Positions 18,204 to 46,117 of a stretch of DNA of 64,000 nucleotides are shown here, piece by piece; the stretch's first letter is position 1, and each line of letters begins with the position of its first letter. The DNA is from a virus. The stretch lies in the IMG/VR virus record IMGVR_UViG_3300035492_000206; one strand, 5' to 3'. The notes beneath the pieces are model-generated. The model ran no database searches. It was not told the DNA's origin and saw only the letters and a list, made by a program, of their open reading frames with translations. Both the position numbers and the translations under genes were made by a program.

Positions 18204-21200
18204 ATGAAACACTCCGTCGCCTGGACCGAGCAGAACGAGCCTATCGGCCTGTCGCTCGATCAGCTCCTCTATCGTATGCGCCGCCATGACAGCCAGGATG
18301 GCCTGCTGTTTGACAGCGTTACCCTGAACGAAATCCTGCAGGAAGAAGGCGTCGAGCAGTTCGCCTTTGACGCCCTGGTATCCCCGTTTTCAAAGCTCAA
18401 GCGCAAGATGGATATCCTGTCGCGCACCATGGACCGCGCCATTGATGGCTATGGCGTGATCGCCATGCAGGTATCCGATCCGTTCAAGCGCAACGGCGTG
18501 GCTCAGGTTGCCGCCGTGTTCGAGCTGGCCGATGGTCAGACCGTGAGCGTTTACTTCCATAATCCGGACAACACCCCCGGCAAGTTGGCCCCTACTGATG
18601 AAATGATCAGCTGGAAGTGGCTGCTGAACAAGAAAGATATCACCATCGTGGTAGCCCCCGAGCGAGGCAATGACCTGCAGATTCGCGAAGTAGCACGCCG
18701 CATCATGAAGTTGGCGCAGAAGAACAGCGCTGCTTTTGCCAAGGCCAATGCCAAGCGCGCCGAACGTCTGGAGATGATCGAAGGCCTGCGCACTGAGATC
18801 AGCGATCTGGAATACGAACTGTCGGACCTGCAAGACCAGATTGAGGTTGCCAAGGTTGAGGCTGAAAGTCGCGCCATGGCCCCGTACAAGGCGGTCAAAG
18901 CGGCTGGCATGGCTGCACTGAATAGCTTCCGCAAGTTCCTGAGTCGCAGCCAGTACCGCGCCATGGTGGAAGCCATTGAGGGTGAAGAAGGTGCCGGTAT
19001 GGCTGACCGTGCCAAAGCGCTTGCGGCCATTATCGAAGGTATGGCGGCCACCTATGATCAGGACGGCAAGGGCGATAATGCCACCGTCTACCTGCATTAC
19101 TTCCAGAACAGTGCCGACTGGTTCATTACTGAAAAGGACGCTCAGGGCGGCACTCAGCAGGCCTTCGGCTATGCCGATATGGGGCAAGGCGGCGAGCTGG
19201 GTTATATCAGCATCGATGAGCTGACCAAAAACGGCGTCGAGCTGGACCTGTACTTTGATCCCAAGCCGCTCAAGGCGGTTAAGCCGTCCAGTGCCGGTAC
19301 CGATGAAGCCGAGGCCGACCTTGCGAAGGCGCATGCCGAGCTGGATGGACGCATCGATGCCCTGTCTGATGATGAAGCGCAGCGCATGGCGCAAGCTCTG
19401 GAGCTGAAGGTTGGTGCCGGTAAGGATTCGCGCGACGTGATCAAGCAGCAGCATCCTGACGATCAGCGTCGCGGGCTTGAGTTGATCGCCTCCCAGTCTG
19501 AGGCAAGCGAATCGACCGATCCCACAACCCCAGAAGGTTACGCCGCCATCATGGACGACGAGGCAGCACTGACCGCCGTTCAGGACCAGCTCGACAGCCA
19601 CTTCCAGGCGCGCATGATCGAGGTCCGCAACGCCCTGCGCGAACTGGGCTGGGAAGGCGAGCGCTTCAAAACCCTGTCGAAGAATGGCGTAGAGGCGGTA
19701 TTCGACCTGATTCAAGTGGGTGCCGGTGCCAATGTGGCCGGTATGACCATCAACGGCATCCGTGACGACCTGAGCAAAACCCCGGCAGAGTTGGCGGCTG
19801 AAGTGGATGCGCTGGCCGAGCCGGTGATCGAAATCGCCAAGTCCTACCGGAACTATGTCGACGATGCCGATGGTGATCTGTTCGAGGCGGCCAAGGCCTT
19901 TTTCAAGGCTGAGCTACAGGGCAAGGTCGTCAAGACAGTGATCGGCGATGTGCATATGACTGGTGGCGGCTTCAGGGAGATGAAGCGCGGCATGAAGTCG
20001 GATGAACTCAAGGCAAGATTGCTTCCCAGCGTGCCGGATATTCTTTCATCCGGCCGATACGACGGTCGCAGCGAGCTTCATAAGCCGCGCAACGATGGTT
20101 ATGTGGCGTTTCACTTCTTTGAGAAAGAAGTGGAGCTGGATGCCTTGATCGTAACCGCCGGGGTAAACGTCGGCGAGCGCAATGACAAGGCTCTCACCTA
20201 CACGGCATACGGTCTCGGATACGAAGGCGGAATTGGCTGGAAAAACAAAGCCGCATCCGGCGGTGTGCTCGATGCGGCTTCGTTCCGCGGGAAGGTGTTC
20301 CGAGGTCCAGGGGTGCCTAGTGAGCCAACAACCAAGCCCGGATCGACTTCCTTCCCCTTGCTCACTATGGATTCCAGTGTAGGTGCTAATGATGAAATTC
20401 TCAACCTCGTGATCCTTAAAGTGGTAGACAAGACCACAGGCGAAGAGCTGACTGAGTATGAGGATGCGCAGGAAGTCGAGCCCATAGAGTCCGACGGTAT
20501 CGAAGAAGTGCTCGATGAGCCTACAGCCGAACAGGTGCTTATCAACGACTTCTATCAAGCGATTCAGGATGAAACTGCTCACATAGAGTCTGCGATTGCA
20601 GGAATTGACTGGGATGCAATCACGGACGTGGAGACCGGCAACGAGCAGGCCGGGGCGCTACGTGATGCCGTAAAAGGGTATCAGCCTGTTGCCAAGGCGC
20701 TGGAGCAACTGGGCGCAAACGGCATCAATGACGGTAATGCGAGTCTGGCCAAGGTATTCGATTCCGATGCCTATCAGGCCAGGGATGAAGCAATGCTCAA
20801 GCTTCGCGAAACAGTCGACAGCATTCACGATCTGGGCAAAGACCGGCTGCGCAAGGCTGGCGAGGCTGAACTCGCATCATTGCCGGAAGACGCATCTCTG
20901 GAGGACGTAGCCAAAGCAATATTCCGCAAGCATGGCATTGACCTGGGTGAAGCTACGAGCGGTCGTGCGGCAGCCATAGTCGAAGGAATAGAAGAAAAGA
21001 ATGCTGAAATGCTCAGGGGCGTTCTGCTGGCAGGGAATAACCCTGCAAGCAACGAGATTTTCGAATATGCGACAGGCATCAAGCTTGCCAAAACCCAGAA
21101 GCAGCGCGGGGTTCAAATTGACGACTGGGCAGGGATCAGCGAGCAACAGCGTGCAGATATCGAAGCAGCGAAGGTCGCTGACAGGGAGGCTGAAGAGCTT

Positions 21201-22286
21201 GCCCGTGAGGTGTCGTCCGCGTGGGATGAGCTTGGGCGAAGCAGCGTGCGCAGCGAGCAGGGCATTCAGGACGGGCAACGTTATCTGATGGGGTTTGTGG
21301 ATGCAGGCGTGCGCGAAATCGGCACAGCGAAGAAGGGCGCAGCAACTGTATACGGCCTGCGCAACAACGATGGTTTGATCTCTGTAAGCGGCAAGAGCTT
21401 CAACCGCTTCCTGAAGGCGGCTACGGCTTACGGCGGCTTGATGCCTGCGCTTGAGCTGGTTGGTGCAGTAGCGACCAAAAGCCAGGAAGAAGAGGTGGCT
21501 CAGGGTGTGGGTGCTGAGGCGGTAAGCGATCCTGAGCAGGCACTGCAACAGGCGCGCGAACAAACCGATAGAGATCCAACCGATGAGCAGAAGGTAAGCG
21601 GCGACTACCAGAAGGGAGAGCTGAACGCCTTTGGCTTGACCCTGGCAATTGAAAATCCAAAGGGGCATGTCCGATCCGGCAAGAATGAAGGCGGGGACGA
21701 ATGGCAGGTAAGCATGGCGCACGACTATGGCTACATCAAGGGAACCAAAGGCCTGGACGGTGACGAAGTGGATGCTTTTATCGGCCCCAATCTCGAAAGC
21801 GAGAAGGTTTTTGTGATCGAGCAGGTGGATTCGGCGGGGGTGCTTGATGAGCACAAGGTAATGCTTGGGTTTGATGACGAAGAGAGCGCAAAACAGGGAT
21901 ACCTGTCCAGCTACAAAGCAGGCTGGGATGGTCTCGGTGCTATTCGCGAAATGAGCCTTACTGAGCTGAAAGAATGGCTGCCGACTGCCGGCGGGAAATC
22001 CATGCCTTCGCTTGAGCCTGAGCCAGCAGCTGAGCCAGAACCGGTAGAGCCTGAAGCGATGACTGAGCCTGATCAGCAAGCGGTGGAGCCCGAAAAGCAA
22101 GCTGATACCGACTACCTGCAGTCCATCATCGATCAGACCATTGCCGATCCGCTGGCGTCCGATATCGCCGATAAGCTGGGCGAAATCTTCGGTCGCAACG
22201 CCGGTGATGCCGAAATGGAAACCCTGATCGAACAGGCCGCTATGGCCTATCAAAATGCCGTCATGCAGGCCACTGCCAACCTCTAA
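18204..22286 (+). CDS. darA: DarA-family polyvalent internal head protein (DarA_N, DUF2958-like, LPD3-like, inorganic-pyrophosphatase-like, DarA_C)
   Basis: DarA_N: VFELADGQTVSVYFHNPD...MISWKWLLNKKDITIVVAPE. DUF2958-like: DWFITE..QAFGYADMG.GGELGYISIDEL..VELDLYF (~19040-19280). LPD3-like ~19880-20240. iPPase-like: IENPKG..RSG..HDYGYIKGT.G.DGDEVD..DEHKVMLGF (~21585-21980). DarA_C: DTDYLQSII... Confidence 0.85.
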   Translation: MKHSVAWTEQNEPIGLSLDQLLYRMRRHDSQDGLLFDSVTLNEILQEEGVEQFAFDALVSPFSKLKRKMDILSRTMDRAIDGYGVIAMQVSDPFKRNGVAQVAAVFELADGQTVSVYFHNPDNTPGKLAPTDEMISWKWLLNKKDITIVVAPERGNDLQIREVARRIMKLAQKNSAAFAKANAKRAERLEMIEGLRTEISDLEYELSDLQDQIEVAKVEAESRAMAPYKAVKAAGMAALNSFRKFLSRSQYRAMVEAIEGEEGAGMADRAKALAAIIEGMAATYDQDGKGDNATVYLHYFQNSADWFITEKDAQGGTQQAFGYADMGQGGELGYISIDELTKNGVELDLYFDPKPLKAVKPSSAGTDEAEADLAKAHAELDGRIDALSDDEAQRMAQALELKVGAGKDSRDVIKQQHPDDQRRGLELIASQSEASESTDPTTPEGYAAIMDDEAALTAVQDQLDSHFQARMIEVRNALRELGWEGERFKTLSKNGVEAVFDLIQVGAGANVAGMTINGIRDDLSKTPAELAAEVDALAEPVIEIAKSYRNYVDDADGDLFEAAKAFFKAELQGKVVKTVIGDVHMTGGGFREMKRGMKSDELKARLLPSVPDILSSGRYDGRSELHKPRNDGYVAFHFFEKEVELDALIVTAGVNVGERNDKALTYTAYGLGYEGGIGWKNKAASGGVLDAASFRGKVFRGPGVPSEPTTKPGSTSFPLLTMDSSVGANDEILNLVILKVVDKTTGEELTEYEDAQEVEPIESDGIEEVLDEPTAEQVLINDFYQAIQDETAHIESAIAGIDWDAITDVETGNEQAGALRDAVKGYQPVAKALEQLGANGINDGNASLAKVFDSDAYQARDEAMLKLRETVDSIHDLGKDRLRKAGEAELASLPEDASLEDVAKAIFRKHGIDLGEATSGRAAAIVEGIEEKNAEMLRGVLLAGNNPASNEIFEYATGIKLAKTQKQRGVQIDDWAGISEQQRADIEAAKVADREAEELAREVSSAWDELGRSSVRSEQGIQDGQRYLMGFVDAGVREIGTAKKGAATVYGLRNNDGLISVSGKSFNRFLKAATAYGGLMPALELVGAVATKSQEEEVAQGVGAEAVSDPEQALQQAREQTDRDPTDEQKVSGDYQKGELNAFGLTLAIENPKGHVRSGKNEGGDEWQVSMAHDYGYIKGTKGLDGDEVDAFIGPNLESEKVFVIEQVDSAGVLDEHKVMLGFDDEESAKQGYLSSYKAGWDGLGAIREMSLTELKEWLPTAGGKSMPSLEPEPAAEPEPVEPEAMTEPDQQAVEPEKQADTDYLQSIIDQTIADPLASDIADKLGEIFGRNAGDAEMETLIEQAAMAYQNAVMQATANL
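20241..20280 (-). terminator. Minus-strand intrinsic terminator inside darA
   Basis: Perfect 10-bp inverted repeat AAGCCGCATC (20248-20257) / GATGCGGCTT (20271-20280), followed on the minus strand by TGTTTTT. Confidence 0.7.
20241..20369 (-). ncRNA. Predicted ~130 nt antisense RNA inside darA
   Basis: Minus-strand promoter at 20376-20404, 8-bp 5' hairpin (20318-20325 with 20360-20367), and an intrinsic terminator at 20241-20280. The ends are predicted. Confidence 0.55.
20376..20404 (-). promoter_or_regulatory. Minus-strand sigma70 promoter inside darA
   Basis: TTGAGA (20404-20399), 17 nt spacer, TACACT (20381-20376). Confidence 0.65.
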
Positions 22287-22292
22287 GGACGA

Positions 22293-23999
22293 ATGATGAA
22301 TCTTTTTTTCGATGCTACCGAAAGTAGCAAAGCTAAATCGACGCTTGCCAGGCTCCGCCTGGTCGGCGCTTTGGCCAAGGTACGCAAAGATATCCTGGCG
22401 CTGGGTGCGGGGGCTGGCAATATTGTCCAGCGCCTGCAACTGGCCAAAGAAGCCTTGAGCCTGCGTGAGCAGCTGGGCGAGCTTGATGCACCCAACGATG
22501 TTGAATCAGATAATGAACCCGACCGGGAAGCCATTCTGGGCGTATTCAGGCAGCTTGGGCGTGACTACCCAGATCGTAGTATGTCTGTTGCAGGGAATTT
22601 GGCGGGCAGCGTGGTGGCGCTGATCCGTGAGGCAGTAGGGCGCGAGGTCATGCCAGAGGAGCTGAGGCAACTGGTCAGCATGGAGGATCGACGCGCCGCC
22701 TATCGAGAAGGCCAGCGGTCTGTCGACCCTGTCGCAAGCGCCGTTGTTGCCATGCACGATGTGATTGAGGCACAGGCTGATGTCCCTGCTGCTGTCGTGC
22801 GCGACGATATCGGAGCGGTTGACTTTATCTGGGGCGAAGAGGGCAAGGAGCCGACTGCATCCGGTAAGCGCAAAGGTGCCAAGGGTGTGGCGCATATCCT
22901 TGAGGCACGAATGCGCAAGGATGGCCTGAGCCTGGAGGAGGCTGCCGCTGTGGCAGAGGAAGTGGCAAAAGTGGTCGCTACAGGCGAGATTACACTAACC
23001 CATCACCATCAAGATGTGAGCCAAGCTACCATTACAGACGGCAAGTACTCTGCAATCATGGTGAAGCGGGAAGGTAGTAATGCATGGCTGCTGACAGGGT
23101 GGGAAGAAAATAAGGATTCCGATGCCACTGGCAAGGGGGATGACAAAACCAGCGCTACGCACTCCGGGCCTACACCTGCCCGTCCCGGAGAGGGAGCGGA
23201 ACCCTCTGATATCAATATAGCACAATCTCAGGATGAAGGTCAGCCGACCGATGAAGGCAGTGCGTCTACAATAGCTGCCCACGGCCTCGCACTGGAGGTG
23301 CCGGCCATTGATCAGCAGCTGATAGATGATTACAACCGCACGACTCATGTATTTGGTGGCCGCGACTTCAATGCAGAACTCCGCAGCGAAGCGGAAAGCC
23401 TTTTGAATGAACTGGTCGAGCGAAACCACACGCTGGATACCCCGGAGCAGCAGGCACTGGCCAAAGAGCTGATCGAATCCTACCTGCAGGCCCAAGCGGA
23501 GTTCGCGCAGTGGAATGCGCGCTTCAGCACCAGTAACCCATCTTGGATTGTGACTGGCCGCAGTGGTCGCGACATGGGCAAGTACAATCGCGCCAATGAG
23601 CGGCACATGGATGAATACACCCGGCGCGTTGACCAGTTGCAGGCCCAGCGTGACCGCATAGGCGAAACGCTCTACAAGATGCGCCCCCAAGAGGTTCAGG
23701 TAGAACAAGCACTGGGCTCGGACTTGCGCGGCATTACCCAACAGGCCGGGCATATTCTGGGTTATTTGGAGGAGGGTAAAGCCGCGCTGGTTGCGGAAAC
23801 CCGCAAATGGGCCGCACCTAAAGCGCACAAGTTGATCGAGCGCAGCCTGACTGTCGACCGTAACCGCACCCTTGAGCATATCCGCGAGCTGGAAAACTCC
23901 AAGTCCGTACAGGATGCCGGTGGTTTGGCCAAGGTGTTCGGCCCTCGCTCAAAGGCAGGCAAGCTGGTGGAGACGCTTCTGAGTGAGCCTGACTCTTGA
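22293..23999 (+). CDS. Second polyvalent head-targeted protein with a BECR/barnase-colicin-like (PBECR) nuclease domain
   Basis: N-terminal LARLRLVGAL...RLQLAKEALSLREQLG leader. DIGAVDFIWG..KGVAHILEAR..SAIMVKREGSNAWLLTGW domain (~22780-23110). SWIVTGRSG..KYNRANERH segment typical of polyvalent proteins. Confidence 0.65.
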   Translation: MMNLFFDATESSKAKSTLARLRLVGALAKVRKDILALGAGAGNIVQRLQLAKEALSLREQLGELDAPNDVESDNEPDREAILGVFRQLGRDYPDRSMSVAGNLAGSVVALIREAVGREVMPEELRQLVSMEDRRAAYREGQRSVDPVASAVVAMHDVIEAQADVPAAVVRDDIGAVDFIWGEEGKEPTASGKRKGAKGVAHILEARMRKDGLSLEEAAAVAEEVAKVVATGEITLTHHHQDVSQATITDGKYSAIMVKREGSNAWLLTGWEENKDSDATGKGDDKTSATHSGPTPARPGEGAEPSDINIAQSQDEGQPTDEGSASTIAAHGLALEVPAIDQQLIDDYNRTTHVFGGRDFNAELRSEAESLLNELVERNHTLDTPEQQALAKELIESYLQAQAEFAQWNARFSTSNPSWIVTGRSGRDMGKYNRANERHMDEYTRRVDQLQAQRDRIGETLYKMRPQEVQVEQALGSDLRGITQQAGHILGYLEEGKAALVAETRKWAAPKAHKLIERSLTVDRNRTLEHIRELENSKSVQDAGGLAKVFGPRSKAGKLVETLLSEPDS

Positions 24000-24061: not shown

Positions 24062-27052
24062 TCAGAGTCTTACGCTTTTGGCGCGCCCAAAGCACTCATC
24101 AATCACGAATGTGACACCATCCTGGTCTCGCAGCGATATCTCCATGCTTGCGTGCTCATCCAGACCCATTTCTGCTGCAATCCTTGGCAGCTGATCAAGC
24201 GAAGGCGACAGCATATCCCAGCAGCCGACTTTGTCGTTGGGGCGAATCTCAACATCTTCCGTTACGTGCCATTCTGCCCAATCTCGCGCCAATCCCGATT
24301 CATTCAAGGCAGGTGAATGGATCTCGAAATACAGGTTCTGATGCCGGTCATACCGGGCGCGAAATCGCACTGTTGGTTGAGGATCGTGCCGAAGATTGAA
24401 ATCGATATAGTGACGACGCGTCAGCCATGCAAGTGCTGTCTTCGATGGGGCGCACCCTGTAATAACCTGCGCTTCAGCTTCAGCCAGCATGCGTTTGGCT
24501 TGATTCTGATCATCCTGCGCCAAAGCGCACATTGCACCATTGTGACCGAACACAAGCGTAGGCGTTATAACAAGTCCTGCCGCCTGCCAGCCGCTGGCAC
24601 CGGCTAGTAGTGCGGCCATTGATTGATCGTTGTGAGTGTATATATTCGCATTGCCCGGATACCTGAAGCAGTCAGCACACCCCTTCAATGATCGAAGATT
24701 ACGATCAAGGATGGCGATATTGGGTGCCTGGACATGCAGGCGTCGATGTCGATTGACGCGCCCCGCGATCTGCACAATGGATGCCGTTGAGGACGGCTCA
24801 ATCACAGACCAGTCAAAATCATGATCGCGACCGACTTCTTCCACTGGCGTAGCCACAACTACAAAGACCAGATCTTCTTCCGGAGCCTGTCGGATCATAT
24901 GATCAAGCTCTGCATCCTGAAAGATGTGTTCGTTCCCTCGCTTGCGGTTAAAAAGCCTGTCCAGTGCGCTTTCCTTCACCCATCGGCGCAACCGGAAATC
25001 CTCAGAATGGTAAGCCGACACCCGGTAGCCTGGCTCGCTCTGCAGCCGGGTAGCTATCTCTACGCAAGGTTCGATGTTGGCAACCCGGACAACGCCGAAA
25101 GAGACGCGCTTACCTGATGGGTGCAACCATGCATGATTGTGGTGCAGTTGTTGTATTGCGGCGCTGATCGAGTGTTGAAATCTATCAATTGGCGTTTCGC
25201 CTTCAGCAACGGTCTGTATGTACGCCAAGCGATAACAGGGTTCCTGGTGTAGGTGGTCGGCAAGCCCATCAAGCCACTGCGCAATGATTGGCTCAATCTC
25301 ATCCGAAGCCCCTGTATGGCTTGAGGGTGACTGGTAGTTGTCTACCAGTGTGATATGGCAGCCTACATGCGAGTGGTGATTGATGGCGCCATGCATGTGC
25401 GCACCGGCCTCAAATGCACGCACCACTGCAGCAGCACATCCCTGCGTGAGTGTCGCGCTGGAGACGATGACGTTACACCCAAGCAGGGCCGCCATTTCAA
25501 TCAGTCGCATCACCGCACCTAGGGATTGAGGGCTGTAATTATCAATTTCATCAAGAATCAAATCACTGCCTGCCACGCGCAGAGCCGCCGTTACATGATG
25601 GCCCTGGCGACCGGGGTTACCCGCATCAATCAGGTAGTCGAGTGTGGATACCAAAAGCGGGGTCCCGAGCAGGGCGCACGTTTTTTCTTCTGAACGGCAG
25701 CCGCCGTAGGTTTCAGCCCATTCACGCACCCACTTTGGGCAAGCAGGATCCACGTTGCCACCAATCTCCCAGATCGCGCGCCCATCAGCCGTGTCGGTTT
25801 CATCCTCATCCTCGTCCACAGCGCCAAGCTTTGCACGCGTGGTGTCGTGTGCCGCCTTCAGAAAGGCATCCCCCATTACGGTTGCTACTTGCTGCCTGGG
25901 CAGGCCAAGGTCTGCGCAAATCGCTTCACCCGTTTGCAGCGTAAGCGAGCGCAAGTTCAGGCCAATAGATATGCGTAACGGCGCTTCTGGTGCTGTCATT
26001 GCATCGGCTATCATCAGGTTGGCGCGCGTCTTCCCCGTGCCGGTGGACGCTGCGTTCAGTACAAGGCGGGGAGTGTTTCGCTGTTCGGGATGCTCATATT
26101 GCGAACGGATATGGTTGACCGCGTCCCGCTGCCAGGCAAAGCGAGATTCAGTACTGTCGCCATGTAGGCGTGCGCGCGCAGCGGTCGAAAGACCTGCAAG
26201 CCCTTCAATTTTGGCCAGCTTTTCTACCCAGCTGGCGGCTTCCTGACCAACGTGCTCAAGATGCCAGTCCAGCGGCTGATCAAGTTTACGCCCGACCCCG
26301 TTATTATTCGGTTTGGTGTTGGCATACAGGCGGTCACTCATGCTATCCACGATTAAGTCACCAGCCATTGAGCGGCTGGACACCTGATGATCTGCGGCAA
26401 TCAGAGCCATTCGGACTATCATGCCCAAACCCTTCCAGTAAGGCGCTTGCTGGTGTTCTTGCGCGGGCAGGTCCGCATCAATACGCTGAAGCACATCCCA
26501 GAGCGCGCTTTCAAGGCTTTCAGGGAAGCCCTGCGTATCGGACGGCATTTGCTTAAACGCATCGACTGGCTGATCGATGAATGGCCTGACATGCGTCTCC
26601 GCCATGGGAATGACCGATCTGTCTTTGTGGCTTGATCGCGCCGTTGGCCCCAACAAGCCGTGGTGTGTCATTACAGCAAAATCGACAACATCGTCAGCCT
26701 TGCATACGGGCGCGACAACAGTCTGCTTAATCATCCGATGGCCCTGCTGCAGGGGCTGCATAAATGCAGGTAGCCGCTCTATGCCATCATCCGCCATTAC
26801 GTGCCAAGCATCCTTCAATGTGGGCGGCGGGGCGGCATTGCCTGCATCGGCACTTTTCTGCCAGGCGCGCATCATGCCTCGCCATGTTTCCAGTACCCGC
26901 ACCGAGATCCACTCATGCCGGATTCGGTCACCACTCAATGCAGACTGCTGTCCACGCAGCTTTTCTTGGAAATGCACAGTGGCTTTCCCAATGTCATGGC
27001 TCAAGCCTGCCGCGCGAGCCAGGAGTGAGGCGAGGTTGGCCCAGCTATTCAT
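24062..27052 (-). CDS. cas3: Type I-F Cas3 HD-nuclease/helicase lacking the N-terminal Cas2 domain
   Basis: LSHDIGKA at residues 17-24, THHG, AADHQVS, ASTGTGKTRAN, LILDEIDNY, SSATL, VVATPVEEVGRDHDFDW and QIAGRVNRHR. Confidence 0.93.
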   Translation of the reverse strand: MNSWANLASLLARAAGLSHDIGKATVHFQEKLRGQQSALSGDRIRHEWISVRVLETWRGMMRAWQKSADAGNAAPPPTLKDAWHVMADDGIERLPAFMQPLQQGHRMIKQTVVAPVCKADDVVDFAVMTHHGLLGPTARSSHKDRSVIPMAETHVRPFIDQPVDAFKQMPSDTQGFPESLESALWDVLQRIDADLPAQEHQQAPYWKGLGMIVRMALIAADHQVSSRSMAGDLIVDSMSDRLYANTKPNNNGVGRKLDQPLDWHLEHVGQEAASWVEKLAKIEGLAGLSTAARARLHGDSTESRFAWQRDAVNHIRSQYEHPEQRNTPRLVLNAASTGTGKTRANLMIADAMTAPEAPLRISIGLNLRSLTLQTGEAICADLGLPRQQVATVMGDAFLKAAHDTTRAKLGAVDEDEDETDTADGRAIWEIGGNVDPACPKWVREWAETYGGCRSEEKTCALLGTPLLVSTLDYLIDAGNPGRQGHHVTAALRVAGSDLILDEIDNYSPQSLGAVMRLIEMAALLGCNVIVSSATLTQGCAAAVVRAFEAGAHMHGAINHHSHVGCHITLVDNYQSPSSHTGASDEIEPIIAQWLDGLADHLHQEPCYRLAYIQTVAEGETPIDRFQHSISAAIQQLHHNHAWLHPSGKRVSFGVVRVANIEPCVEIATRLQSEPGYRVSAYHSEDFRLRRWVKESALDRLFNRKRGNEHIFQDAELDHMIRQAPEEDLVFVVVATPVEEVGRDHDFDWSVIEPSSTASIVQIAGRVNRHRRLHVQAPNIAILDRNLRSLKGCADCFRYPGNANIYTHNDQSMAALLAGASGWQAAGLVITPTLVFGHNGAMCALAQDDQNQAKRMLAEAEAQVITGCAPSKTALAWLTRRHYIDFNLRHDPQPTVRFRARYDRHQNLYFEIHSPALNESGLARDWAEWHVTEDVEIRPNDKVGCWDMLSPSLDQLPRIAAEMGLDEHASMEISLRDQDGVTFVIDECFGRAKSVRL

Positions 27053-27942
27053 GACGTTATGGCCTCCATGCTCACAGCCACCGGATCAATGCAGTCAGAT
27101 GTGACCGCTTTGGGTTGCAGGTGGCGCTGCCGAAAATGGAATAGCGACGCATCATCCAACAGGATGCGGTTCTGGCTATCCAGGCCAAGCTCGCGGCGGG
27201 CAGCCAGTGACTGGTCAGGCGTCATCTTGGGGTTCAGTGAGACGACATACCAGCGGCCCGTCGCACGGCCAATGCCTGAATCTTTGATTGCGTCAATCTG
27301 CAGCTGAATGCTTGGCGTGATCGAGAGGGGGCGAAGTTCGAGCATGCGGAAAAGAACAAATTGCTTTAGAGGGGCGGTTAGTACGTCTTGAGCATCAAAT
27401 TCATCAAAGTCATACCCGGTTACTAGCAGTTGATCAGCAATGCGATGCAATGCGACCGGGTAGATGCATCGCCACCGCGCCTGATCATTCTTTTTCCTGC
27501 CTACATAGCGCACCGAGAAGGCTTTTTTGTGCACCATTGCGTGAAGCAGGGGGGTGTAATCGACCTCATCAGGGAGGCGCTGCGCCCGAATCTTGCCGTA
27601 CTGAACGCTGAGGCTTCCCACAACGCCTGGCGCATCATCAATATCAAGCCCAGCCTGCAGCCGTGTGATGGGGCTAAACAGGATCTCATTCAGGATGGAG
27701 TTGGCGCTGTTCGGGTCTCGTGTATCCAGGGCGACATAACTATGGGGCCGGTAGCAGCGTTTGTCCTGATAAATCAAGTTGCTGTAGGCCGAGCACATCT
27801 GATTGAGAAGGCGATACTTCGTTGCAGCCGAGCCCTCACTGATGCCGTCCAGATCACTTCGGCGGAACTGACCGGTGTGGATTGTCCGGCGCAAAACGTA
27901 GCGTTCGATCATGTCCTGTTGGTAGATAGTTGCAGATGACAA
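27049..27942 (-). CDS. WYL-domain transcriptional regulator (BrxR/CapW-like)
   Basis: LLHAMVHKKAFSVRYVG...RCIYPVALH...LLVTGYD...QFVLFRM is the WYL core. SLNPKMTPDQ..ARRELGL is a CapW-like C-terminus. TTG start with GAGGAG SD. ATGA-coupled to cas3. Confidence 0.75.
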   Translation of the reverse strand: MSSATIYQQDMIERYVLRRTIHTGQFRRSDLDGISEGSAATKYRLLNQMCSAYSNLIYQDKRCYRPHSYVALDTRDPNSANSILNEILFSPITRLQAGLDIDDAPGVVGSLSVQYGKIRAQRLPDEVDYTPLLHAMVHKKAFSVRYVGRKKNDQARWRCIYPVALHRIADQLLVTGYDFDEFDAQDVLTAPLKQFVLFRMLELRPLSITPSIQLQIDAIKDSGIGRATGRWYVVSLNPKMTPDQSLAARRELGLDSQNRILLDDASLFHFRQRHLQPKAVTSDCIDPVAVSMEAITS

Positions 27943-28017
27943 GTTCCAATCTCCTCAAAAAGATAATTCACTTAAAACCATAGAGTTAAATATATATCAA
28001 AATGAAAAATAAAAGAA

Positions 28018-28046
28018 TTGCCACAGGATGAAAATAACTCTAGTCT
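28018..28046 (+). promoter_or_regulatory. Putative sigma70 promoter of the csy operon in the AT-rich divergent spacer
   Basis: TTGCCA (28018-28023), 17 nt spacer, TAGTCT (28041-28046). Confidence 0.55.
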
Positions 28047-28111
28047 AGTGCTCATCGAACAAGCAACGGGAGGATGGCGCGGAGTCATGGACACCAGCGC
28101 CGGGCAAAAGA

Positions 28112-29239
28112 ATGAAAAACTCAGAGCAGCAAAGCGCGCTATCCAACTGGATACTGGACAACCTGGTGCATTTCTCGAACAAGCTCACAAACTCAAACGC
28201 ACCGGGGGGCGGTATTCGGCTGTCAGGCATACAGGCCCTTGACCTGCCTTACGTGAGTGCACGAACGCACCTGCACGACATCAACCGTAAAGCGACCGGG
28301 GCACTTATTGAGCTGGATTACGTAAAGCCCACAAATATCCGGATGAAGGATGTTCGGGTATGCCTGGGCGAGGAAGTCATCAACCCGCCAGAGCTTGATC
28401 TTGCTAAGGATCAGATGAGCGAAGTTGCCGGTGTGTACTTGGATGCAGCATCAGGCCGGCATCCCTGCAAAGTTGCCGACCCGAAGGCACAGACTTTGTC
28501 GCGGCTGAAGCAGATTCTATTGCCACTACCTGAGGATGAGGCTTATTTGGCGGTAAGCCCGCTCAGTGCAGCAGGCATGGCAAAGCTGCTCAATGACACC
28601 TACGCCGCGCGCTTCGACCAGAGCGAGCAGGGCGACAATGGAAAAGGCTTGATCCCCAGGGTGCGTTCATTTCCCTATGGCGGAGACAAGCCGCAGAACG
28701 TGGGCTCTCGCGTCAATGAAGGCTTGAGCCGTCCATTCGTGTTTGATCGCGTGCCCCGTGAAAATGATGACCTGAAATACGCGCATCGCCTGTTTTATCG
28801 TGGCCTAACCTTGCGACTGCCTAAAGCGCTAATCATGGACTACAAGTCATTCCTCGACAGCGTGCGCAGAGAAGGGCGCGACTTGAAGGTATGGCCTGCC
28901 TCGCTCAAGCGTGCAGAGCGTGCCTATCTGCAGCCTCTATGGGGGAGCTGGGAGAATCAGGCCAGAAAGGCTAGGCGCGTACTGGAAGAACACGCAGCTT
29001 CACTGCCGGATTCAAATCCCGCATGGCATGGCGAGACCGAAGAAGCCCGGTTTCAGGCTGGGTGGTTGATGCCTTCAGCGCGAGGGCATGAGTGGAAGAA
29101 ACAAGCAGCTCGCCGATTTGCCAGCCTGCTTTCAGCCAGTCGTGTCGCTGCCGGGCGTGACGGCGAGTCTGGACGGATCGCGTTGAGCCCTACCGATCAG
29201 CACCGCGTTGCCAGTGCAGTCCTGGAGGGCTTCAGATGA
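28112..29239 (+). CDS. csy1: Cas8f (Csy1), divergent
   Basis: KQILLPLPEDEAYLAVSPLSAAG and YGGDKPQNVG motifs. First gene of the csy operon. Confidence 0.82.
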   Translation: MKNSEQQSALSNWILDNLVHFSNKLTNSNAPGGGIRLSGIQALDLPYVSARTHLHDINRKATGALIELDYVKPTNIRMKDVRVCLGEEVINPPELDLAKDQMSEVAGVYLDAASGRHPCKVADPKAQTLSRLKQILLPLPEDEAYLAVSPLSAAGMAKLLNDTYAARFDQSEQGDNGKGLIPRVRSFPYGGDKPQNVGSRVNEGLSRPFVFDRVPRENDDLKYAHRLFYRGLTLRLPKALIMDYKSFLDSVRREGRDLKVWPASLKRAERAYLQPLWGSWENQARKARRVLEEHAASLPDSNPAWHGETEEARFQAGWLMPSARGHEWKKQAARRFASLLSASRVAAGRDGESGRIALSPTDQHRVASAVLEGFR

Positions 29240-30120
29240 ACAAGCGTTATCTATTGCTTCCACGACTGGATGTGCAGCGCGCAAACGCAATGGTGACTGC
29301 GGGTGTGATCTCACTATGTCCTGTCATGCCAGCAGTGCTCATGGGCGAGGCTTTCGGACATGCAACAGGTGCGTTCCCAGAAGGGGTGATGCTTGTCCAC
29401 CATGACGCTTACCTGCTGGCTGATCAAAGCCTTGACCAAGCCCGACCGGGTGGCACTGAGTACTATCCGCATCAATTCCGGGGCGCGACAGCGTTCAACG
29501 GTAAAGATATAGCGGGTGGTGACAAGAAAACACCATCCAACTCGATCCAGCCAACGGCCAGCATGAATGGCACCTGGTCAGTGATCATGTCATTCGACGC
29601 AGATCAGATTGATGCCGACAGTCTGCTGTCAGCCGCAACGCAATTTCTTGGACGTATGGCACGGCTTGCCGGTGGCGTGATTACACACTTTGAAAAGCCT
29701 CAGGTGCAAGATGATCTGGCGGGTATTCTTGCTGCATGCCGAAGTGGTTTTGTGGCTATCGACCGGTCGCCTTGGCTGGTATCGGACACACAGACGCGCA
29801 TCGAGCGTTTGCTGGCGCACACCGATGGAAGCGTTCAGCCCGAGCATCAGGGAAGGCGTCGCTGGCTGGTCCCGGCTGCTCTGGGGTATGCCCTGCTAAC
29901 AGATCCTGTCGATACGGCTGGCGCGCGTAATGGCTTGCCCCATGCGTTCGCAGAAGTGCTCCTGGGGTTGGTGGAGCTGGTCAGCATCCGGCAAACATCC
30001 GCTTTCCCCACGCAAAACGAAACACAGGATATAACACTGATTGAATCATGCTTTTGGCGGCAAAACTGGCCAACACAAGACGTTTTTTTATTGAATCAAG
30101 AGGAGCCCAGCAATGGCTAA
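29236..30120 (+). CDS. csy2: Cas5f (Csy2)
   Basis: LLLPRLDVQRANA, RLAGGVI, WLVPAALGYALL, RNGLPHAFAE.LLGLVE. Confidence 0.88.
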   Translation: MNKRYLLLPRLDVQRANAMVTAGVISLCPVMPAVLMGEAFGHATGAFPEGVMLVHHDAYLLADQSLDQARPGGTEYYPHQFRGATAFNGKDIAGGDKKTPSNSIQPTASMNGTWSVIMSFDADQIDADSLLSAATQFLGRMARLAGGVITHFEKPQVQDDLAGILAACRSGFVAIDRSPWLVSDTQTRIERLLAHTDGSVQPEHQGRRRWLVPAALGYALLTDPVDTAGARNGLPHAFAEVLLGLVELVSIRQTSAFPTQNETQDITLIESCFWRQNWPTQDVFLLNQEEPSNG

Positions 30121-31186
30121 AGTAATGGCAAAACTACCCGGTGTAACCAGCTTCACCCGTCGCAGTGTGATCAGCGATGGCGCATTTTACAGTCTTGTTG
30201 ACGGGGTTGAAGTACCCCTGCCGGTTGTGCGTCACGGAATTCGTGGCACTCAGAACATCAATAACACAAAGGAGCGCGAACCCTCGCAGATCCAGGTAAC
30301 TGAAACAGCGCGCACAGAAGTGAATGCCGACGCCTTCCTGGTGCGGTTCAATCTGCGCTTTCTGCCGCTACAAGAAGGCTTGCACGCGTGTGCGGTCAAT
30401 AAGCAGACCGACAAGGCGTTAACAGAGGCGCTGCGGGCGCAATACGAGGCATTCGTGAGCGCTGCCCGCAACAGTGATGGCTTGGCTGAGGTGTCTCTTC
30501 GCACCGCGCGGAATATCCTCAATGGTCGCTGGCTCTGGCGCAACCGTAGCCTGGGCGAAGCAATCGAGATCAGCGCCAGTACGCAGGACAAGCGCATAAA
30601 CATAGACGGGTTTGATGCGCTTGAGCTGCCGCTGAATGCCTTTGGCGATTACACCCGTGAAGAGCAGCAGCTGGGTGACTACATTCAGCACATGCTTCAG
30701 GGCGAAGCCACTGGCGGCATGACGATTGAAGCGCGCGTAAGCCTTGGGTTCACGGGATCGGTCGAAGTATTCCCCTCGCAGAACTATGTGTCCAAAAAGC
30801 CCAAAGGCTTTGCCCGGCCACTGTATAAGCTGGGAGTGGCCGACAAGTCGCGCACGTTTACTACCGCTGATGACATGCTGGATTACAGTGATATTCGGCG
30901 CATAGGGCAGGCTGCACTGCGTGACCAGAAGATTGGCAATGCGCTGCGCACCATTGATACCTGGTATCCAGACGCGCAGGCGCATGGCTATCGCCCGATT
31001 CCGGTTGAGCCAGAAGGTGCAAACTTGGACTCAATGTCCATGCTGCGCAAGCACAAAGGCGCAAACAGCCCGTCTGCATTTGCACTGGCAACGCGCATGG
31101 CCGAGCTTGACCCAAACAGCGCAGACGGCATGTTCCTGATCGCTGCCTTGATGCGTGGCGGCGTATATGGCGAAGCAGGCGAATAA
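30113..31186 (+). CDS. csy3: Cas7f (Csy3)
   Basis: VRHGIRGTQN, NILNGRWLWRN, EVFPSQ and QKIGNALRTIDTWY. Confidence 0.95.
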   Translation: MAKVMAKLPGVTSFTRRSVISDGAFYSLVDGVEVPLPVVRHGIRGTQNINNTKEREPSQIQVTETARTEVNADAFLVRFNLRFLPLQEGLHACAVNKQTDKALTEALRAQYEAFVSAARNSDGLAEVSLRTARNILNGRWLWRNRSLGEAIEISASTQDKRINIDGFDALELPLNAFGDYTREEQQLGDYIQHMLQGEATGGMTIEARVSLGFTGSVEVFPSQNYVSKKPKGFARPLYKLGVADKSRTFTTADDMLDYSDIRRIGQAALRDQKIGNALRTIDTWYPDAQAHGYRPIPVEPEGANLDSMSMLRKHKGANSPSAFALATRMAELDPNSADGMFLIAALMRGGVYGEAGE

Positions 31187-31216: not shown

Positions 31217-31810
31217 GTGCCCAGCTGGCGTCGGCGACACATGATGAAGCACTACATGGATATTCGATTGATACCTTCCGCAGGCATGACGCCCCCAACA
31301 CTGGCGGCAGAGGTGGTCAAGAAAGTACATGCATGCCTTCAGGTACACCCTGGTGCCATCGCGCTCGCACTGCCTGAGTGCGCAGCCGGACCGGATCGCA
31401 AGATCGGCACGCTGGTCAGGTTATTTGCCACGGACGCAAGTCACTTGAATGCGACTGCAGACGAAATTGAGGCACATAAGGCAATCAGTGGCATGGCGGT
31501 TCCAACGCGTATCCGCGAAGTACCCGCCGAGACTACACGGTGGGTAGCATACACGCGTTTCAGGCTGCCAAATCGACGCCGACAGGCCAAAGACACCGAT
31601 GCCTTTGCAGTCAGGCGGCAGCAGCTACGCGCCGAGCGCATGGCGGTCATCGACACACTGCCCACGCTGTATATGTCATCTGCCACCAATGGGCATCGCT
31701 ATGGCATGGGTATTCAGGTGGTGGAGTGCGACCATGCGTCACCACAGGGCACTCTTAATGGTTACGGACTATCCAGTCAATCAAGCCCGTTCTGGCTACC
31801 GATGGTATGA
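31217..31810 (+). CDS. cas6f: Cas6f (Csy4) crRNA endonuclease
   Basis: HYMDIRL...VKKVH (catalytic His), Arg-rich helix, LYMSSATNGHRY and C-terminal GTLNGYGLS. Start is GTG 31217 or ATG 31241. Confidence 0.9.
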   Translation: MPSWRRRHMMKHYMDIRLIPSAGMTPPTLAAEVVKKVHACLQVHPGAIALALPECAAGPDRKIGTLVRLFATDASHLNATADEIEAHKAISGMAVPTRIREVPAETTRWVAYTRFRLPNRRRQAKDTDAFAVRRQQLRAERMAVIDTLPTLYMSSATNGHRYGMGIQVVECDHASPQGTLNGYGLSSQSSPFWLPMV

Positions 31811-31944: not shown

Positions 31945-32452
31945 CTTCACCGCCGTGTAGGCGGCTTAGAAATCGAAACCATGCGTCTGCGATCTCCTGC
32001 CGGTCTTCACCGCCGTGTAGGCGGCTTAGAAACCTGTCTGGCACCTTCTCGCTTGATTCAGCCCCTTCACCGCCGTGTAGGCGGCTTAGAAATGAGATGG
32101 GACACCCTCAAGGCGGGGCCTTACCTTCACCGCCGTGTAGGCGGCTTAGAAAATACGCGCCTGCGTCTCTGCGGCTTGCTCCAGCTTCACCGCCGTGTAG
32201 GCGGCTTAGAAAGTTCCAGCGTGGTTTCATCAAGCCGGACGTTCCTTCACCGCCGTGTAGGCGGCTTAGAAAAGCATCGATTTAGCACCGCTTCTTGCGG
32301 CATCCTTAACCGCCGTGTAGGCGGTTTAGAAATCGCAGAGCGCACGCAGGCTGTTGAGGCTTGCTTTCACCGCCGCGTAGGCGGTTTAGAAAAACGAGAA
32401 GGCCGAAGTGGGTATCAACCTGCACTTCACCGCCGCATAGGCGGATTACTTG
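31945..32452 (+). CRISPR. Type I-F CRISPR array: 9 repeats (28 bp, CTTCACCGCCGTGTAGGCGGCTTAGAAA) and 8 spacers of 32 bp
   Basis: Exact 60-bp period, repeats starting at 31945, 32005 ... 32425. Repeats 1-6 are identical and 7-9 progressively degenerate. CCGCC-GTGTA-GGCGG hairpin typical of Cas6f substrates. Confidence 0.98.
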
Positions 32453-32975: not shown

Positions 32976-33011
32976 TGGGACGATTTGCACCCCTGATCTG
33001 GTTTGTTAACC

Positions 33012-33052
33012 GGAAACTCCCCACCTTCAAAGCCATGGCGCTGGCGCACAAT
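33012..33052 (+). promoter_or_regulatory. Putative phage late promoter (GGAAA-N30-CACAAT) for the portal operon
   Basis: GGAAA at 33012, CACAAT at 33047. Confidence 0.65.
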
Positions 33053-33059
33053 CAGCGTC

Positions 33060-34601
33060 ATGGCTACCAAATCCAAAACGCAGCGACGCGGCATATTCTC
33101 CTCTCTGTTCGGCGGCAATACCAAAGCTTACACAGACGAGACAGCGTCAGCGAGCGACATTAAACAGTCGGATACCACCCTATACGGCGCGGGCATGACC
33201 ACGGTCGCCAGTTTGATGGCGTCCGGAAATCGCAAGGCTCGCACCCGTCAAGCCATCTATGACCAATGGTCGATGATGGAGGCGAACCCGATTGTATCCA
33301 CGTCCGTTCAACTGCTGGTGACAGCTGCGCTGGGCGGGCATGAGACCAACGGTAGCCTGGTGTTCATCGAGGAGCGGCCCGGATTCAACGACGATCAGAA
33401 AATGTCGGATTTGGTGCGTGAAGTGCGGGACGACCTTTCCGATCTGTTCAATGCAGTGGCGTTTCAGGTGGCGTATCTTGGGGCTAACTTTGGCGATGCC
33501 TACGCGCGCGTTTACAGCGAAGACAAAAAGGGTGTTGTCGACCTGTACGTGGGTGAAATGATCCGTCCGCCGCTGGTGCAGCCATTCGAGCGCGGCTCCC
33601 GCACGGTGGGCTTTGCGGTCTACACCGGTGAGAAGAACTTTCAGCGCCTCGATAAAACCCAGATGGTGCGCATGAAGATGCCGCGCACGCAATGGATTCC
33701 CCAGCACGGCGTGGTCGAAAAGTCGCTGAAACTTGCGCTTGAAGAGGACAATATCGACAACCTGCCGCTTATGCCCGCCATGGCCGGCGGTTCGCTGCTT
33801 TATGCTGCCGAAGAGCCCTATAACAACCTGGTGTCGAGCCTGCTGGGGCTGGTGGGCCAGCGCTGGATGGACTCCATCGATGAGCAGATGCTTACTGTCA
33901 ACCTGAATGACATGAGCAAGGCGCACCAGAAAAAGTTCATCGAATCGATCACGGCAATGCTCAAGCGCTCGAAAGAAGTGGCTGAGGATGCGGTTAAGGG
34001 TGGACGCCCAATCCTGGAGCGCATTCGGCACGTCATCCCTGTGTTCGGTGACAAGCAGCTCACGACTATTCAGGCGCCCAACGGTGGCCAACCGGGCCGC
34101 GCGGCCAATATCGGCATCGAAGACATCATGCTGCATGCGCGATTGCTGGCCGGTGCGCTGGGTGTCGATCTATCCATGGTCGGCTTTGCTGATCAGATGA
34201 GCGGCGGCTTGGGGGAGGGCGGCTTCTTCCGTACCAGTGCCCAAGTGGCTGAGCGCGCGCGCGTCATCCGCGTAGCCCTGTCCGAATTCTTCAATCACGT
34301 CATCGACATTCACACGCTGAAGAAATACGGCGTTGTGATCCCTGCATCCGAGCGGCCTTGGCAGATCAATTTCTTCGGCTCCATATCGGCGCTTGAGGCC
34401 GAGAAGCAGCGCACCCGCTCCGAAGGCATGAGTGTGGGCTTGATGCTGATTCAGGCCATTCAGCAGCTCAAGGATATGGGTGTCAGTGAGGAGATGGCAG
34501 CCAACTACCTGACTGACCTGATGCAGCTGGATGAAGAGCAGGCCAAGCTGTATGCAAAAACCGTTGCGGCACCGAAGGATGACGATGATGGGTATGTTTG
34601 A
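33060..34601 (+). CDS. Portal protein, P1 Prt-like
   Basis: GIEDIMLHARLLAGALGVDLSMVGFADQMSGGLGEGGFFRT matches the P1 Prt motif as I recall it. ATG at 33060. Confidence 0.85.
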   Translation: MATKSKTQRRGIFSSLFGGNTKAYTDETASASDIKQSDTTLYGAGMTTVASLMASGNRKARTRQAIYDQWSMMEANPIVSTSVQLLVTAALGGHETNGSLVFIEERPGFNDDQKMSDLVREVRDDLSDLFNAVAFQVAYLGANFGDAYARVYSEDKKGVVDLYVGEMIRPPLVQPFERGSRTVGFAVYTGEKNFQRLDKTQMVRMKMPRTQWIPQHGVVEKSLKLALEEDNIDNLPLMPAMAGGSLLYAAEEPYNNLVSSLLGLVGQRWMDSIDEQMLTVNLNDMSKAHQKKFIESITAMLKRSKEVAEDAVKGGRPILERIRHVIPVFGDKQLTTIQAPNGGQPGRAANIGIEDIMLHARLLAGALGVDLSMVGFADQMSGGLGEGGFFRTSAQVAERARVIRVALSEFFNHVIDIHTLKKYGVVIPASERPWQINFFGSISALEAEKQRTRSEGMSVGLMLIQAIQQLKDMGVSEEMAANYLTDLMQLDEEQAKLYAKTVAAPKDDDDGYV

Positions 34602-45952: not shown

Positions 45953-46117
45953 CTTGTATCAAAACAGTCAGATCGTGCTGGCTTACGGGCTTGCATGCAG
46001 CACTGAACAAAAGGACATGCGGTCCACGGCGAAAGCCGAAATACTCAATAGGCGGGTTAATTCTGGTAGCCGGTGGCGAACGTTTTGCCCGCCGCCAATT
46101 ATATAAGGCATCCAAGG

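What the first reader, a model, noticed from the sequence alone, without database searches (positions are those of the whole stretch)
26900..27052. Cas3f begins precisely where the Cas2 domain normally ends
Seen: the protein starts MNSWANLASLLARAAGLSHDIGKA, and the start codon overlaps the WYL stop, leaving no room for Cas2. Known: I-F Cas3 is a Cas2-3 fusion, Cas1 binds via Cas2 and restrains Cas3, and some anti-CRISPRs such as AcrIF3 contact the fusion. Inference: a clean deletion that uncouples this nuclease from host Cas1 and may alter Acr sensitivity.
Basis: partly seen in the sequence, partly recalled or inferred. Interest (0 to 1): 0.6.

Follow-up and report, generated by a model that had tools for sequence, protein, structure and literature searches.

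The report
Phage Cas3 nuclease missing its Cas2 domain
A temperate phage carries a cut-only type I-F CRISPR-Cas unit whose Cas3 nuclease has lost its usual Cas2 head; the same loss has happened many times in bacteria and was seen only where the spacer-acquiring gene cas1 is also gone.

Summary
The gene at 24062-27052 (-) encodes a 996-aa type I-F Cas3 that begins about 18 residues before the HD motif. That point corresponds to about residue 105 of P. aeruginosa Cas2/3, just after the Cas2 domain (1-94) and linker (95-104). Its ATG overlaps the stop of the upstream WYL gene (ATGA), and an in-frame stop lies 11 codons upstream.

No Cas2-like or Cas1-like sequence was found in any frame of the 64-kb window. 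The WYL protein folds end to end as a BrxR/CapW-type regulator and is no longer than its orthologues that sit beside intact cas2-3 genes.

- WYL-cas(2-)3 facing csy1-4 is an ancestral layout of this I-F lineage.
- Cas2-less Cas3f arose at least 13 times on a 62-sequence tree.
- In informative loci it tracks cas1 loss exactly: 27 of 27 Cas2+ loci have cas1, and 0 of 7 Cas2-less loci do.
- It also occurs in genomes with no Cas1f at all, so there is no Cas1 to "escape" from.
- AcrIF3 binds the Cas3 body, not Cas2.

This is an interference-only variant of a known system. It is tidy and, as far as my searches show, undescribed, but functionally expected.

The parts
24062..27052 (-). cas3f: 996-aa HD nuclease / SF2 helicase that lacks the N-terminal Cas2 domain and linker
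   Evidence: TIGR02562 E 8e-162, profile 104-914 of 1110. Pfam Cas3-like_C_2 and Cas3_HD. PDB 5b7i/8flj Cas2/3 at E 1e-76 from chain residue 113 onward. HD, helicase motif I (GTGKT), motif II (DEID) and motif VI residues are invariant in the 15-sequence alignment.
27049..27052 (-). ATGA overlap: the cas3f start codon shares bases with the WYL stop codon (translational coupling)
   Evidence: Sequence. Similar tight junctions (TAATG, TGATG, ATGA) occur in related WYL-cas(2-)3 loci.
27049..27942 (-). WYL-domain regulator (wHTH-WYL-WCX, BrxR/CapW-like), first gene of the leftward operon
   Evidence: Pfam WYL E 0.0012. AF2 model pLDDT 85. Foldseek finds CapW at 6e-11 and BrxR at 1e-8. VIA Z 9.1 over residues 4-296 to BrxR 3-278. 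Orthologues have the same length next to Cas2-containing cas2-3 genes.
27943..28111 (.). 169-bp divergent intergenic region between the WYL-cas3f and csy operons (presumed promoters and operator)
   Evidence: Coordinates. Function not tested here.
28112..29239 (+). cas8f (csy1), 375 aa, with the C-terminal helical bundle retained
   Evidence: Weak Pfam Cas_Csy1 hit. AF2 model pLDDT 83. It aligns over 1-375 to P. aeruginosa Cas8f 48-427 (Z 10), whereas ICP1 Cas8f aligns only to about 1-220.
29236..30120 (+). cas5f (csy2)
   Evidence: Pfam Cas_Csy2 7e-09 and TIGR02565.
30113..31186 (+). cas7f (csy3)
   Evidence: Pfam Cas_Csy3 2e-56 and TIGR02566 6e-67.
31217..31810 (+). cas6f (csy4)
   Evidence: Pfam Cas_Csy4 4e-22 and TIGR02563.
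31945..32448 (+). CRISPR array: 9 I-F-type 28-nt repeats and 8 spacers of 32 nt. It directly follows cas6f, where cas1 sits in related loci.
   Evidence: the repeat finder, spacing 60. Sequence. Position of cas1 in relatives.

Best explanation
The window is a temperate myovirus-like phage genome. It holds terminase, portal, sheath, baseplate, integrase and RecT genes, and it carries an interference-only type I-F1-like CRISPR-Cas cassette. The cassette descends from an I-F lineage laid out as [cas1<-cas6f<-csy3<-csy2<-csy1][WYL->cas2-3]. In the phage branch (this phage plus the P0003 contig), cas1 and the roughly 100 codons for Cas2 plus linker have both been deleted. That leaves a Cas3f that starts at the first helix of the HD domain and is still translationally coupled to the WYL regulator gene. 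I infer the following mechanism. Cas6f processes the 8-spacer array. The Csy complex (Cas8f, Cas5f, Cas7f, Cas6f) finds a target. The retained Cas8f helical bundle then recruits the Cas2-less Cas3f directly, as in P. aeruginosa and unlike ICP1, where Cas1 bridges the two. The HD nuclease and helicase then degrade the target. The Cas2 domain serves only spacer integration and Cas1-mediated restraint of Cas3, so it becomes dispensable once cas1 is gone and is lost. The phage cannot add spacers with the genes seen in this window. Shown: the anatomy, the absence of Cas1 and Cas2, the recurrence of the loss and its link to cas1 loss, and the folds. Inferred: activity, the recruitment route, and the order and cause of the two deletions.
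For: Domain boundary. No Cas2 in the window: I-F Cas2 HMM over six frames, best E 4.9; tblastn best E 0.12; no Cas2 Pfam family among 44 small intergenic ORFs. No Cas1: Cas1f HMM best E 2.5, with the seeds verified as TIGR03637; Pfam on the large ORFs. The sister P0004 has Cas2. Tree: the window and P0003 form a clade at 99*, and at least 13 changes of Cas2 state are forced. Co-loss: Cas2+ loci 27/27 with cas1, Cas2-less 0/7, Fisher p 1.9e-7; cas1 lies more than 3 kb from the cas2-3 5' end in 24 of 27 loci. Genomes with Cas2-less Cas3f and no Cas1f. Catalytic residues are invariant. The Cas8f helical bundle is present. The P. aeruginosa system cleaves without Cas1, and Cas1 is mildly inhibitory (10.1101/2024.03.09.584257; PMC12259127).
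Against: No activity data exist. TIGR02562 scores 540.5, below its 565.95 cut-off, as expected when about 100 profile positions are missing, but this is formally sub-threshold. The window is not the whole phage, so cas1 or cas2 elsewhere in the genome cannot be excluded. The tree was built with FastTree and has some long branches.
Confidence: 0.8

Rival explanations
1. One reading: Cas2 was removed adaptively so that the phage nuclease cannot be captured and repressed by a host I-F Cas1, and so that it escapes anti-CRISPRs that contact the fusion.
For: Cas1 represses Cas2/3 nuclease activity in P. aeruginosa (PMC12259127; Rollins 2017, cited). Adding Cas1 mildly inhibits P. aeruginosa interference. 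The co-loss needs two separate deletions in most lineages, which hints at selection rather than one accident. G274 holds a Cas2-less locus beside a complete I-F locus with Cas1f.
Against: The same loss occurs in bacterial genomes with no Cas1f at all (G024, G107), where there is nothing to escape. No locus pairs a Cas2-less Cas3f with its own cas1. AcrF3 binds the HD/RecA1/RecA2/CTD groove and was solved bound to PaCas3(106-1076) (PMC5859409). The host and its CRISPR content are unknown.
Confidence: 0.15
2. The cassette is decaying: Cas3f is an N-terminally truncated pseudogene, or the system acts only by binding DNA without cutting.
For: The adaptation genes are gone. The distal repeats of the array are degenerate. 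TIGR02562 scores below its cut-off.
Against: The ORF is a full 996 aa with no internal stops. All HD and helicase motifs are invariant. A 64%-identical orthologue has the same length and start. GGAGG is followed by ATG coupled to the WYL stop. Six leader-proximal repeats are identical. The Cas3 protein is 100% identical in three assemblies.
Confidence: 0.05
3. Cas2 function is supplied from elsewhere: by a stand-alone cas2/cas1 outside the window, or by the C-terminal domain of the WYL protein.
For: The last ~70 residues of the WYL model weakly resemble small alpha/beta domains such as the Lrp/AsnC C-terminal domain and the subtilisin propeptide (Z 4.0-4.4). From memory, these belong to the same broad ferredoxin-like class as Cas2. 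The window does not cover the whole phage.
Against: That domain is the ordinary C-terminal (WCX) domain of BrxR/CapW, which align end to end with the model. WYL orthologues beside intact cas2-3 genes have it too and are the same length. There is no sequence similarity to Cas2. No Cas2 chain appears among the listed structural matches.
Confidence: 0.03

Closest known systems
P. aeruginosa PA14 type I-F1 system and its Cas2/3 (PDB 5B7I, 8FLJ)
   Same: Same gene set for interference (Cas8f with helical bundle, Cas5f, Cas7f, Cas6f), 28-nt repeats and 32-nt spacers. Cas3 HD, RecA1, RecA2 and CTD align from chain residue 113 to 887.
   Different: No cas1. Cas3 lacks residues equivalent to 1-104 (Cas2 plus linker). 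A WYL regulator gene precedes cas3. The cassette is phage-borne.
Vibrio phage ICP1 type I-F system
   Same: A phage-encoded I-F CRISPR-Cas with a Cas3f homologue (27% identity).
   Different: ICP1 keeps cas1 and a Cas2/3 fusion. Its Cas8f lacks the helical bundle, and Cas1 bridges Cas2/3 to the Csy complex. Here the reverse holds: the bundle is kept and cas1 and Cas2 are lost.
Laboratory truncation PaCas3(106-1076) used for cryo-EM with AcrF3
   Same: Almost the same N-terminal boundary as the natural protein here (M1 at about P. aeruginosa residue 105).
   Different: It is an engineered construct, not a natural gene. Its interference activity is not described in the text I read.
Adaptation-less CRISPR-Cas loci on phages and plasmids, and transposon-borne I-F3 systems (general knowledge; PMC11656645 and PMC7145637 were listed but not read)
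   Same: A mobile element carrying effector genes and an array without cas1/cas2.
   Different: I-F3 systems also lack cas3 and carry tniQ, whereas here cas3 is kept. I found no paper in the library describing a natural Cas3f without its Cas2 domain.
BrxR / CapW WYL-domain regulators of defence systems
   Same: The WYL protein has the same three-domain fold over its full length. WYL genes next to I-F cas genes have been noted before (PMC12887000).
   Different: Here it is translationally coupled to cas3f. Its ligand and operator are unknown.

Membership tests
Cas3f (type I-F Cas2-3, TIGR02562) | HD nuclease domain with the H-D, H, HH and D-H motifs | tested here: met
   H19 D20, H46, H130 H131 and D221 H222 are invariant in alignment A1. 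Pfam Cas3_HD and TIGR01596 hits.
Cas3f (type I-F Cas2-3, TIGR02562) | SF2 helicase core and Cas3 C-terminal domain | tested here: met
   GTGKT 338-342, DEID 501-504 and the QxxGRxxR block 761-768 are conserved. PF22590 at 3.6e-22. Aligned to 5b7i up to chain residue 893.
Cas3f (type I-F Cas2-3, TIGR02562) | N-terminal Cas2 domain fused to Cas3 | tested here: not met
   The profile match starts at position 104 of 1110. No PF21384 hit, although relatives score 82 bits. A stop lies 11 codons upstream.
Cas3f (type I-F Cas2-3, TIGR02562) | Score above the curated equivalog cut-off | tested here: not met
   540.5 bits against a cut-off of 565.95. The shortfall matches the missing Cas2 segment.
Type I-F1 CRISPR-Cas locus | cas8f, cas5f, cas7f and cas6f plus a 28-nt-repeat array | tested here: met
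Type I-F1 CRISPR-Cas locus | Adaptation module (cas1 plus Cas2) | tested here: not met
   Six-frame Cas1f HMM best E 2.5. Cas2 HMM best E 4.9. This applies to the window only.
Type I-F3 (Tn7-associated) | No cas3; tniQ/tns genes adjacent | tested here: not met
   An intact cas3f is present. The flanking genes are phage structural genes. tniQ was not searched for specifically.
ICP1-type compact phage I-F | Cas8f without helical bundle; Cas1-dependent Cas2/3 recruitment | tested here: not met
   The Cas8f model aligns through the C-terminal helical region of P. aeruginosa Cas8f, while ICP1 Cas8f covers only about 1-220. No cas1.
BrxR/CapW-type WYL regulators | wHTH + WYL (Sm-like barrel) + C-terminal WCX domain | tested here: met
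   Foldseek E 6e-11 to 1e-8. VIA Z about 9 over residues 4-296. Pfam WYL at 0.0012, below its cut-off.
BrxR/CapW-type WYL regulators | Binds an operator in its own promoter and responds to a nucleic-acid ligand | not testable with these tools

The most novel reading that the evidence does not exclude
The exact coupling of Cas2-domain loss with cas1 loss is not passive decay but a rule enforced by selection. The coupling is 27/27 against 0/7, across many independent lineages, even though the two lie at opposite ends of the locus and need separate deletions. On this reading, an orphan Cas2 domain on Cas3f is harmful or mis-regulating without Cas1. The Cas2-less Cas3f would then be a naturally de-repressed nuclease that mobile elements and secondary loci favour. 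A corollary concerns the long, uniform arrays in Cas1f-less loci and genomes (46-65 repeats in L034, L044, L061 and L130). These would imply that spacers are supplied in trans by another element or another CRISPR type.
Probability: 0.25. Interest if true: 0.6.

Novelty: new variant of a known kind. Interest (0 to 1): 0.4.

Why it matters
It gives a natural, repeatedly evolved answer to what the Cas2 half of the I-F Cas2-3 fusion is for. Evolution removes it at the domain boundary whenever cas1 is gone and keeps the rest under constraint. This argues that Cas2 plays no necessary part in interference when Cas8f keeps its helical bundle. It contrasts neatly with ICP1, where Cas1 and Cas2 have become part of interference. 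It provides compact natural Cas3f proteins for tool building. It also flags annotation problems: such proteins fall just under the TIGR02562 cut-off, and one in the hit list is named only "HD domain-containing protein". For phage biology, it documents a temperate phage with a fixed-memory CRISPR weapon governed by a WYL regulator.

Tried and rejected
1. Hidden Cas2: tblastn of seven Cas2 domains and a Cas2 HMM over all six frames of the window found nothing better than E 0.12 and 4.9. Pfam over 44 small intergenic ORFs found only PAAR, BTLCP, a tail-fibre N-terminus and two weak leucine-zipper hits.
2. Cas2 inside WYL: rejected on length and colinearity with orthologues and on the fold. No Cas2 chain was among the listed matches. 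The list is not exhaustive.
3. Hidden Cas1: rejected.
Scans of viral contigs with P0001, P0003 and P0004 returned only this phage or distant Cas2+ loci.
5. Host via the repeat: the exact 27-nt repeat core occurs in one genome, Phytohalomonas tamaricis. There it is an orphan 7-repeat array, and no Cas3f or Cas1 was found in that genome. Nothing else in that locus resembles the window.
6. Spacer targets: an exact search with spacer 8 found only the array itself. The array against INPHARED phages gave no match.
7. Megablast of the cassette against phage records: no match.
8. Literature: four searches found no description of a natural Cas2-less Cas3f.
Full report
**What is in the window.** The 64-kb window is a temperate, myovirus-like phage genome.
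- Large terminase (2-1693), tail sheath (9586-11235) and a DarA-like polyvalent protein (18204-22286).
- A PBECR1-nuclease protein (22293-23999), portal (33003-34601) and tape measure with lysin (35466-38699).
- Baseplate genes, a reverse transcriptase (46073-47299) and an integrase (49652-50920, minus strand).
- Dam, RdgC and a RecT/PD-(D/E)XK recombination module.

Between the dar-like genes and the portal lies a type I-F CRISPR-Cas cassette.
- cas3f, 24062-27052 (-).
- A WYL-domain gene, 27049-27942 (-).
- Facing the other way: csy1/cas8f (28112-29239), csy2/cas5f (29236-30120), csy3/cas7f (30113-31186) and cas6f (31217-31810).
- An array of nine 28-nt repeats and eight 32-nt spacers (31945-32448).

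**Checking the observation.** The Cas3f ORF begins MNSWANLASLLARAAGLSHDIGKA.
- Its ATG (27052-27050) shares bases with the TGA of the WYL ORF (27051-27049), giving an ATGA overlap.
- The Cas3 frame is closed 11 codons upstream.
- GGAGG sits 10 nt before the ATG (my reading).
- TIGR02562 matches from residue 2 to profile position 104 of 1110.
- PF21384, the I-F Cas2 domain, is absent here but scores about 82 bits on residues 1-78 of the 51%-identical relative P0004.
- Against P. aeruginosa Cas2/3 (8flj), residue 9 aligns with residue 113. Published boundaries are Cas2 1-94 and linker 95-104 (PMC12259127). The protein therefore starts at about residue 105, the first residue of the Cas3 body.
- The Cas3 protein is 100% identical in two other assemblies.
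- The closest homologue (P0003, 64% identity, 998 aa) starts at the same position.

**Is Cas2 or Cas1 hidden elsewhere?**
- tblastn with seven Cas2 domains gave nothing better than E 0.12. A profile built from them, run over all six frames, gave nothing better than E 4.9. The same searches found the domain in every other Cas3f locus from IMG/VR.
- Forty-four small intergenic ORFs have no Cas2 Pfam family.
- A Cas1f profile, with seeds verified as TIGR03637, gave a best E of 2.5 in the window. Pfam on the large ORFs found no Cas1.
- The WYL protein (297 aa) aligns end to end with orthologues that sit upstream of intact cas2-3 genes, so it has gained no extra domain.
- Its AlphaFold model (pLDDT 85) matches CapW and BrxR over residues 4-296 (Foldseek E 6e-11 to 1e-8; Z about 9).
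- The last ~70 residues weakly resemble small alpha/beta domains (Z about 4). This is the normal C-terminal domain of that regulator family, not a transplanted Cas2.

**What the surroundings in other loci show.** I collected 80 metagenomic, 9 viral and several genomic Cas3f loci.
- Homologues of this WYL protein lie immediately upstream of cas3f or cas2-3 in at least 15 non-redundant loci. Eleven have the Cas2 domain and four lack it.
- The junctions are usually tight or overlapping: TAATG, TGATG or ATGA.
- In these loci cas1 sits at the far end of the csy operon, after cas6f. That is exactly where the array begins in the window.
- The ancestral layout is therefore [cas1<-cas6f<-csy3<-csy2<-csy1][WYL->cas2-3]. 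The WYL gene is not a replacement for cas1 or cas2.

**Recurrence and co-loss.**
- On a tree of 62 non-redundant Cas3 cores with the Cas2 region removed, the Cas2-less proteins are scattered. At least 13 changes of state are forced by well-supported branches.
- The window and P0003 form a clade (99*) whose sister, P0004, has Cas2. The loss therefore predates their 64%-identity divergence.
- Other Cas2-less genes start 12-35 residues before the HD motif. Some (P0010, P0039) keep only the last Cas2 strand.
- Among loci where the cas6f end of the operon is in view, all 27 Cas2-containing loci have cas1 and none of the 7 Cas2-less loci do (Fisher p 1.9e-7).
- Every Cas2+ locus 'without cas1' is simply truncated before cas6f.
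- In 24 of 27 loci cas1 is more than 3 kb from the 5' end of cas2-3, so two deletions are needed.
- In a sample of 301 genomes of one bacterial family, four Cas3f genes lack Cas2. Two of those genomes (G024, G107) have no Cas1f anywhere. A third (G090) has only a weak, sub-threshold Cas1-like hit about 70 kb away. The fourth (G274) also holds a complete I-F locus with Cas1f.

**How it most likely works.**
- All HD and helicase motifs are conserved.
- The Cas8f model (pLDDT 83) aligns over its whole length with P. aeruginosa Cas8f, including the C-terminal helical bundle. ICP1 Cas8f lacks that bundle and covers only the first ~220 residues.
- In P. aeruginosa the bundle recruits Cas2/3 and Cas1 is not needed for cleavage. 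In ICP1, Cas1 bridges Cas2/3 to the Csy complex.
- I therefore infer ordinary I-F1-type interference with direct, Cas1-independent recruitment of a Cas2-less Cas3f, no autonomous spacer uptake, and expression under a BrxR/CapW-like WYL regulator.

'Clean deletion' is right. 'Uncouples from host Cas1' is possible, because Cas1 does repress Cas2/3. It is unnecessary, though: the same loss occurs where no Cas1f exists and was never seen with a resident cas1. 'Alters AcrIF3 sensitivity' is unlikely on structural grounds. The AcrF3 dimer binds the HD/RecA1/RecA2/CTD groove and was solved bound to PaCas3(106-1076), a construct with nearly the same N-terminus as this natural protein (PMC5859409).

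**Novelty.** Phage-borne and adaptation-less CRISPR-Cas systems are known, and WYL genes beside I-F loci have been noted (PMC12887000). Four full-text searches found no description of natural Cas3f proteins without the Cas2 domain or of their strict association with cas1 loss. That is absence of evidence in this library only. I rate it a new variant of a known kind with moderate interest. The result is what the known roles of Cas2 predict, but the exactness and recurrence of the co-loss are worth a proper census.

**Limits.**
- There is no functional test.
- The window is not the whole phage.
- The tree is a FastTree tree with some long branches.
- The metagenomic sample is biased toward relatives of this protein.
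They do not refute it either.

Noticed in passing
L034:1566-4330, L044:2277-5300, L061:155-4100, L065:15-1071, L130:1183-4725: Cas1-less, Cas2-less I-F loci carry long, very uniform arrays (46, 51, 65, 18+ and 60 repeats) directly after cas6f. In G090 (L130) the genome showed no Cas1f above cut-off. Either the spacers were acquired before the loss or they are supplied in trans.
   Followed up: partly
L091:5958-6348 (Phytohalomonas tamaricis NZ_PVRV01000021.1): An orphan 7-repeat array has the same 27-nt repeat core as the phage array. No Cas3f or Cas1 was found in that genome, which hints at a Halomonadaceae-like host range.
   Followed up: partly
window:46073-47299: A reverse transcriptase (PHROG 1423, E 6e-134) sits among tail and baseplate genes. 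It looks like a diversity-generating retroelement, but no template or variable repeat was searched for.
   Followed up: no
L008:9696-10930 (IMG/VR UViG_641522603_000005): A Cas2-3 gene has its reading frame broken inside the Cas2 domain: residues 1-51 are in one ORF and the rest begins in another. This may be an intermediate on the way to Cas2 loss, or a sequencing error.
   Followed up: no
P0010, P0039 (protein database hits): These Cas3f proteins keep only the last ~25 residues of the Cas2 domain (KLLWVVG...), so deletions end at variable points inside Cas2.
   Followed up: partly
G274: C27:165868-170138 and C25:74245-76521 (L129): One genome holds both a complete I-F locus (Cas1f next to Cas2-3) and a second, Cas2-less, cas1-less I-F locus with about 32 repeats.
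   Followed up: partly
window, small intergenic ORFs (set A5): Among 44 small ORFs, one has a PAAR motif (2e-21) and one a BTLCP transglutaminase-like peptidase domain (3e-12). Which ORFs these are was not resolved.
   Followed up: no
L061:11018-12130: A second, different WYL-WCX regulator (Pfam WYL 3e-13, WCX 5e-13) lies downstream of a Cas2-less cas3f, on the opposite strand, rather than upstream.
   Followed up: no
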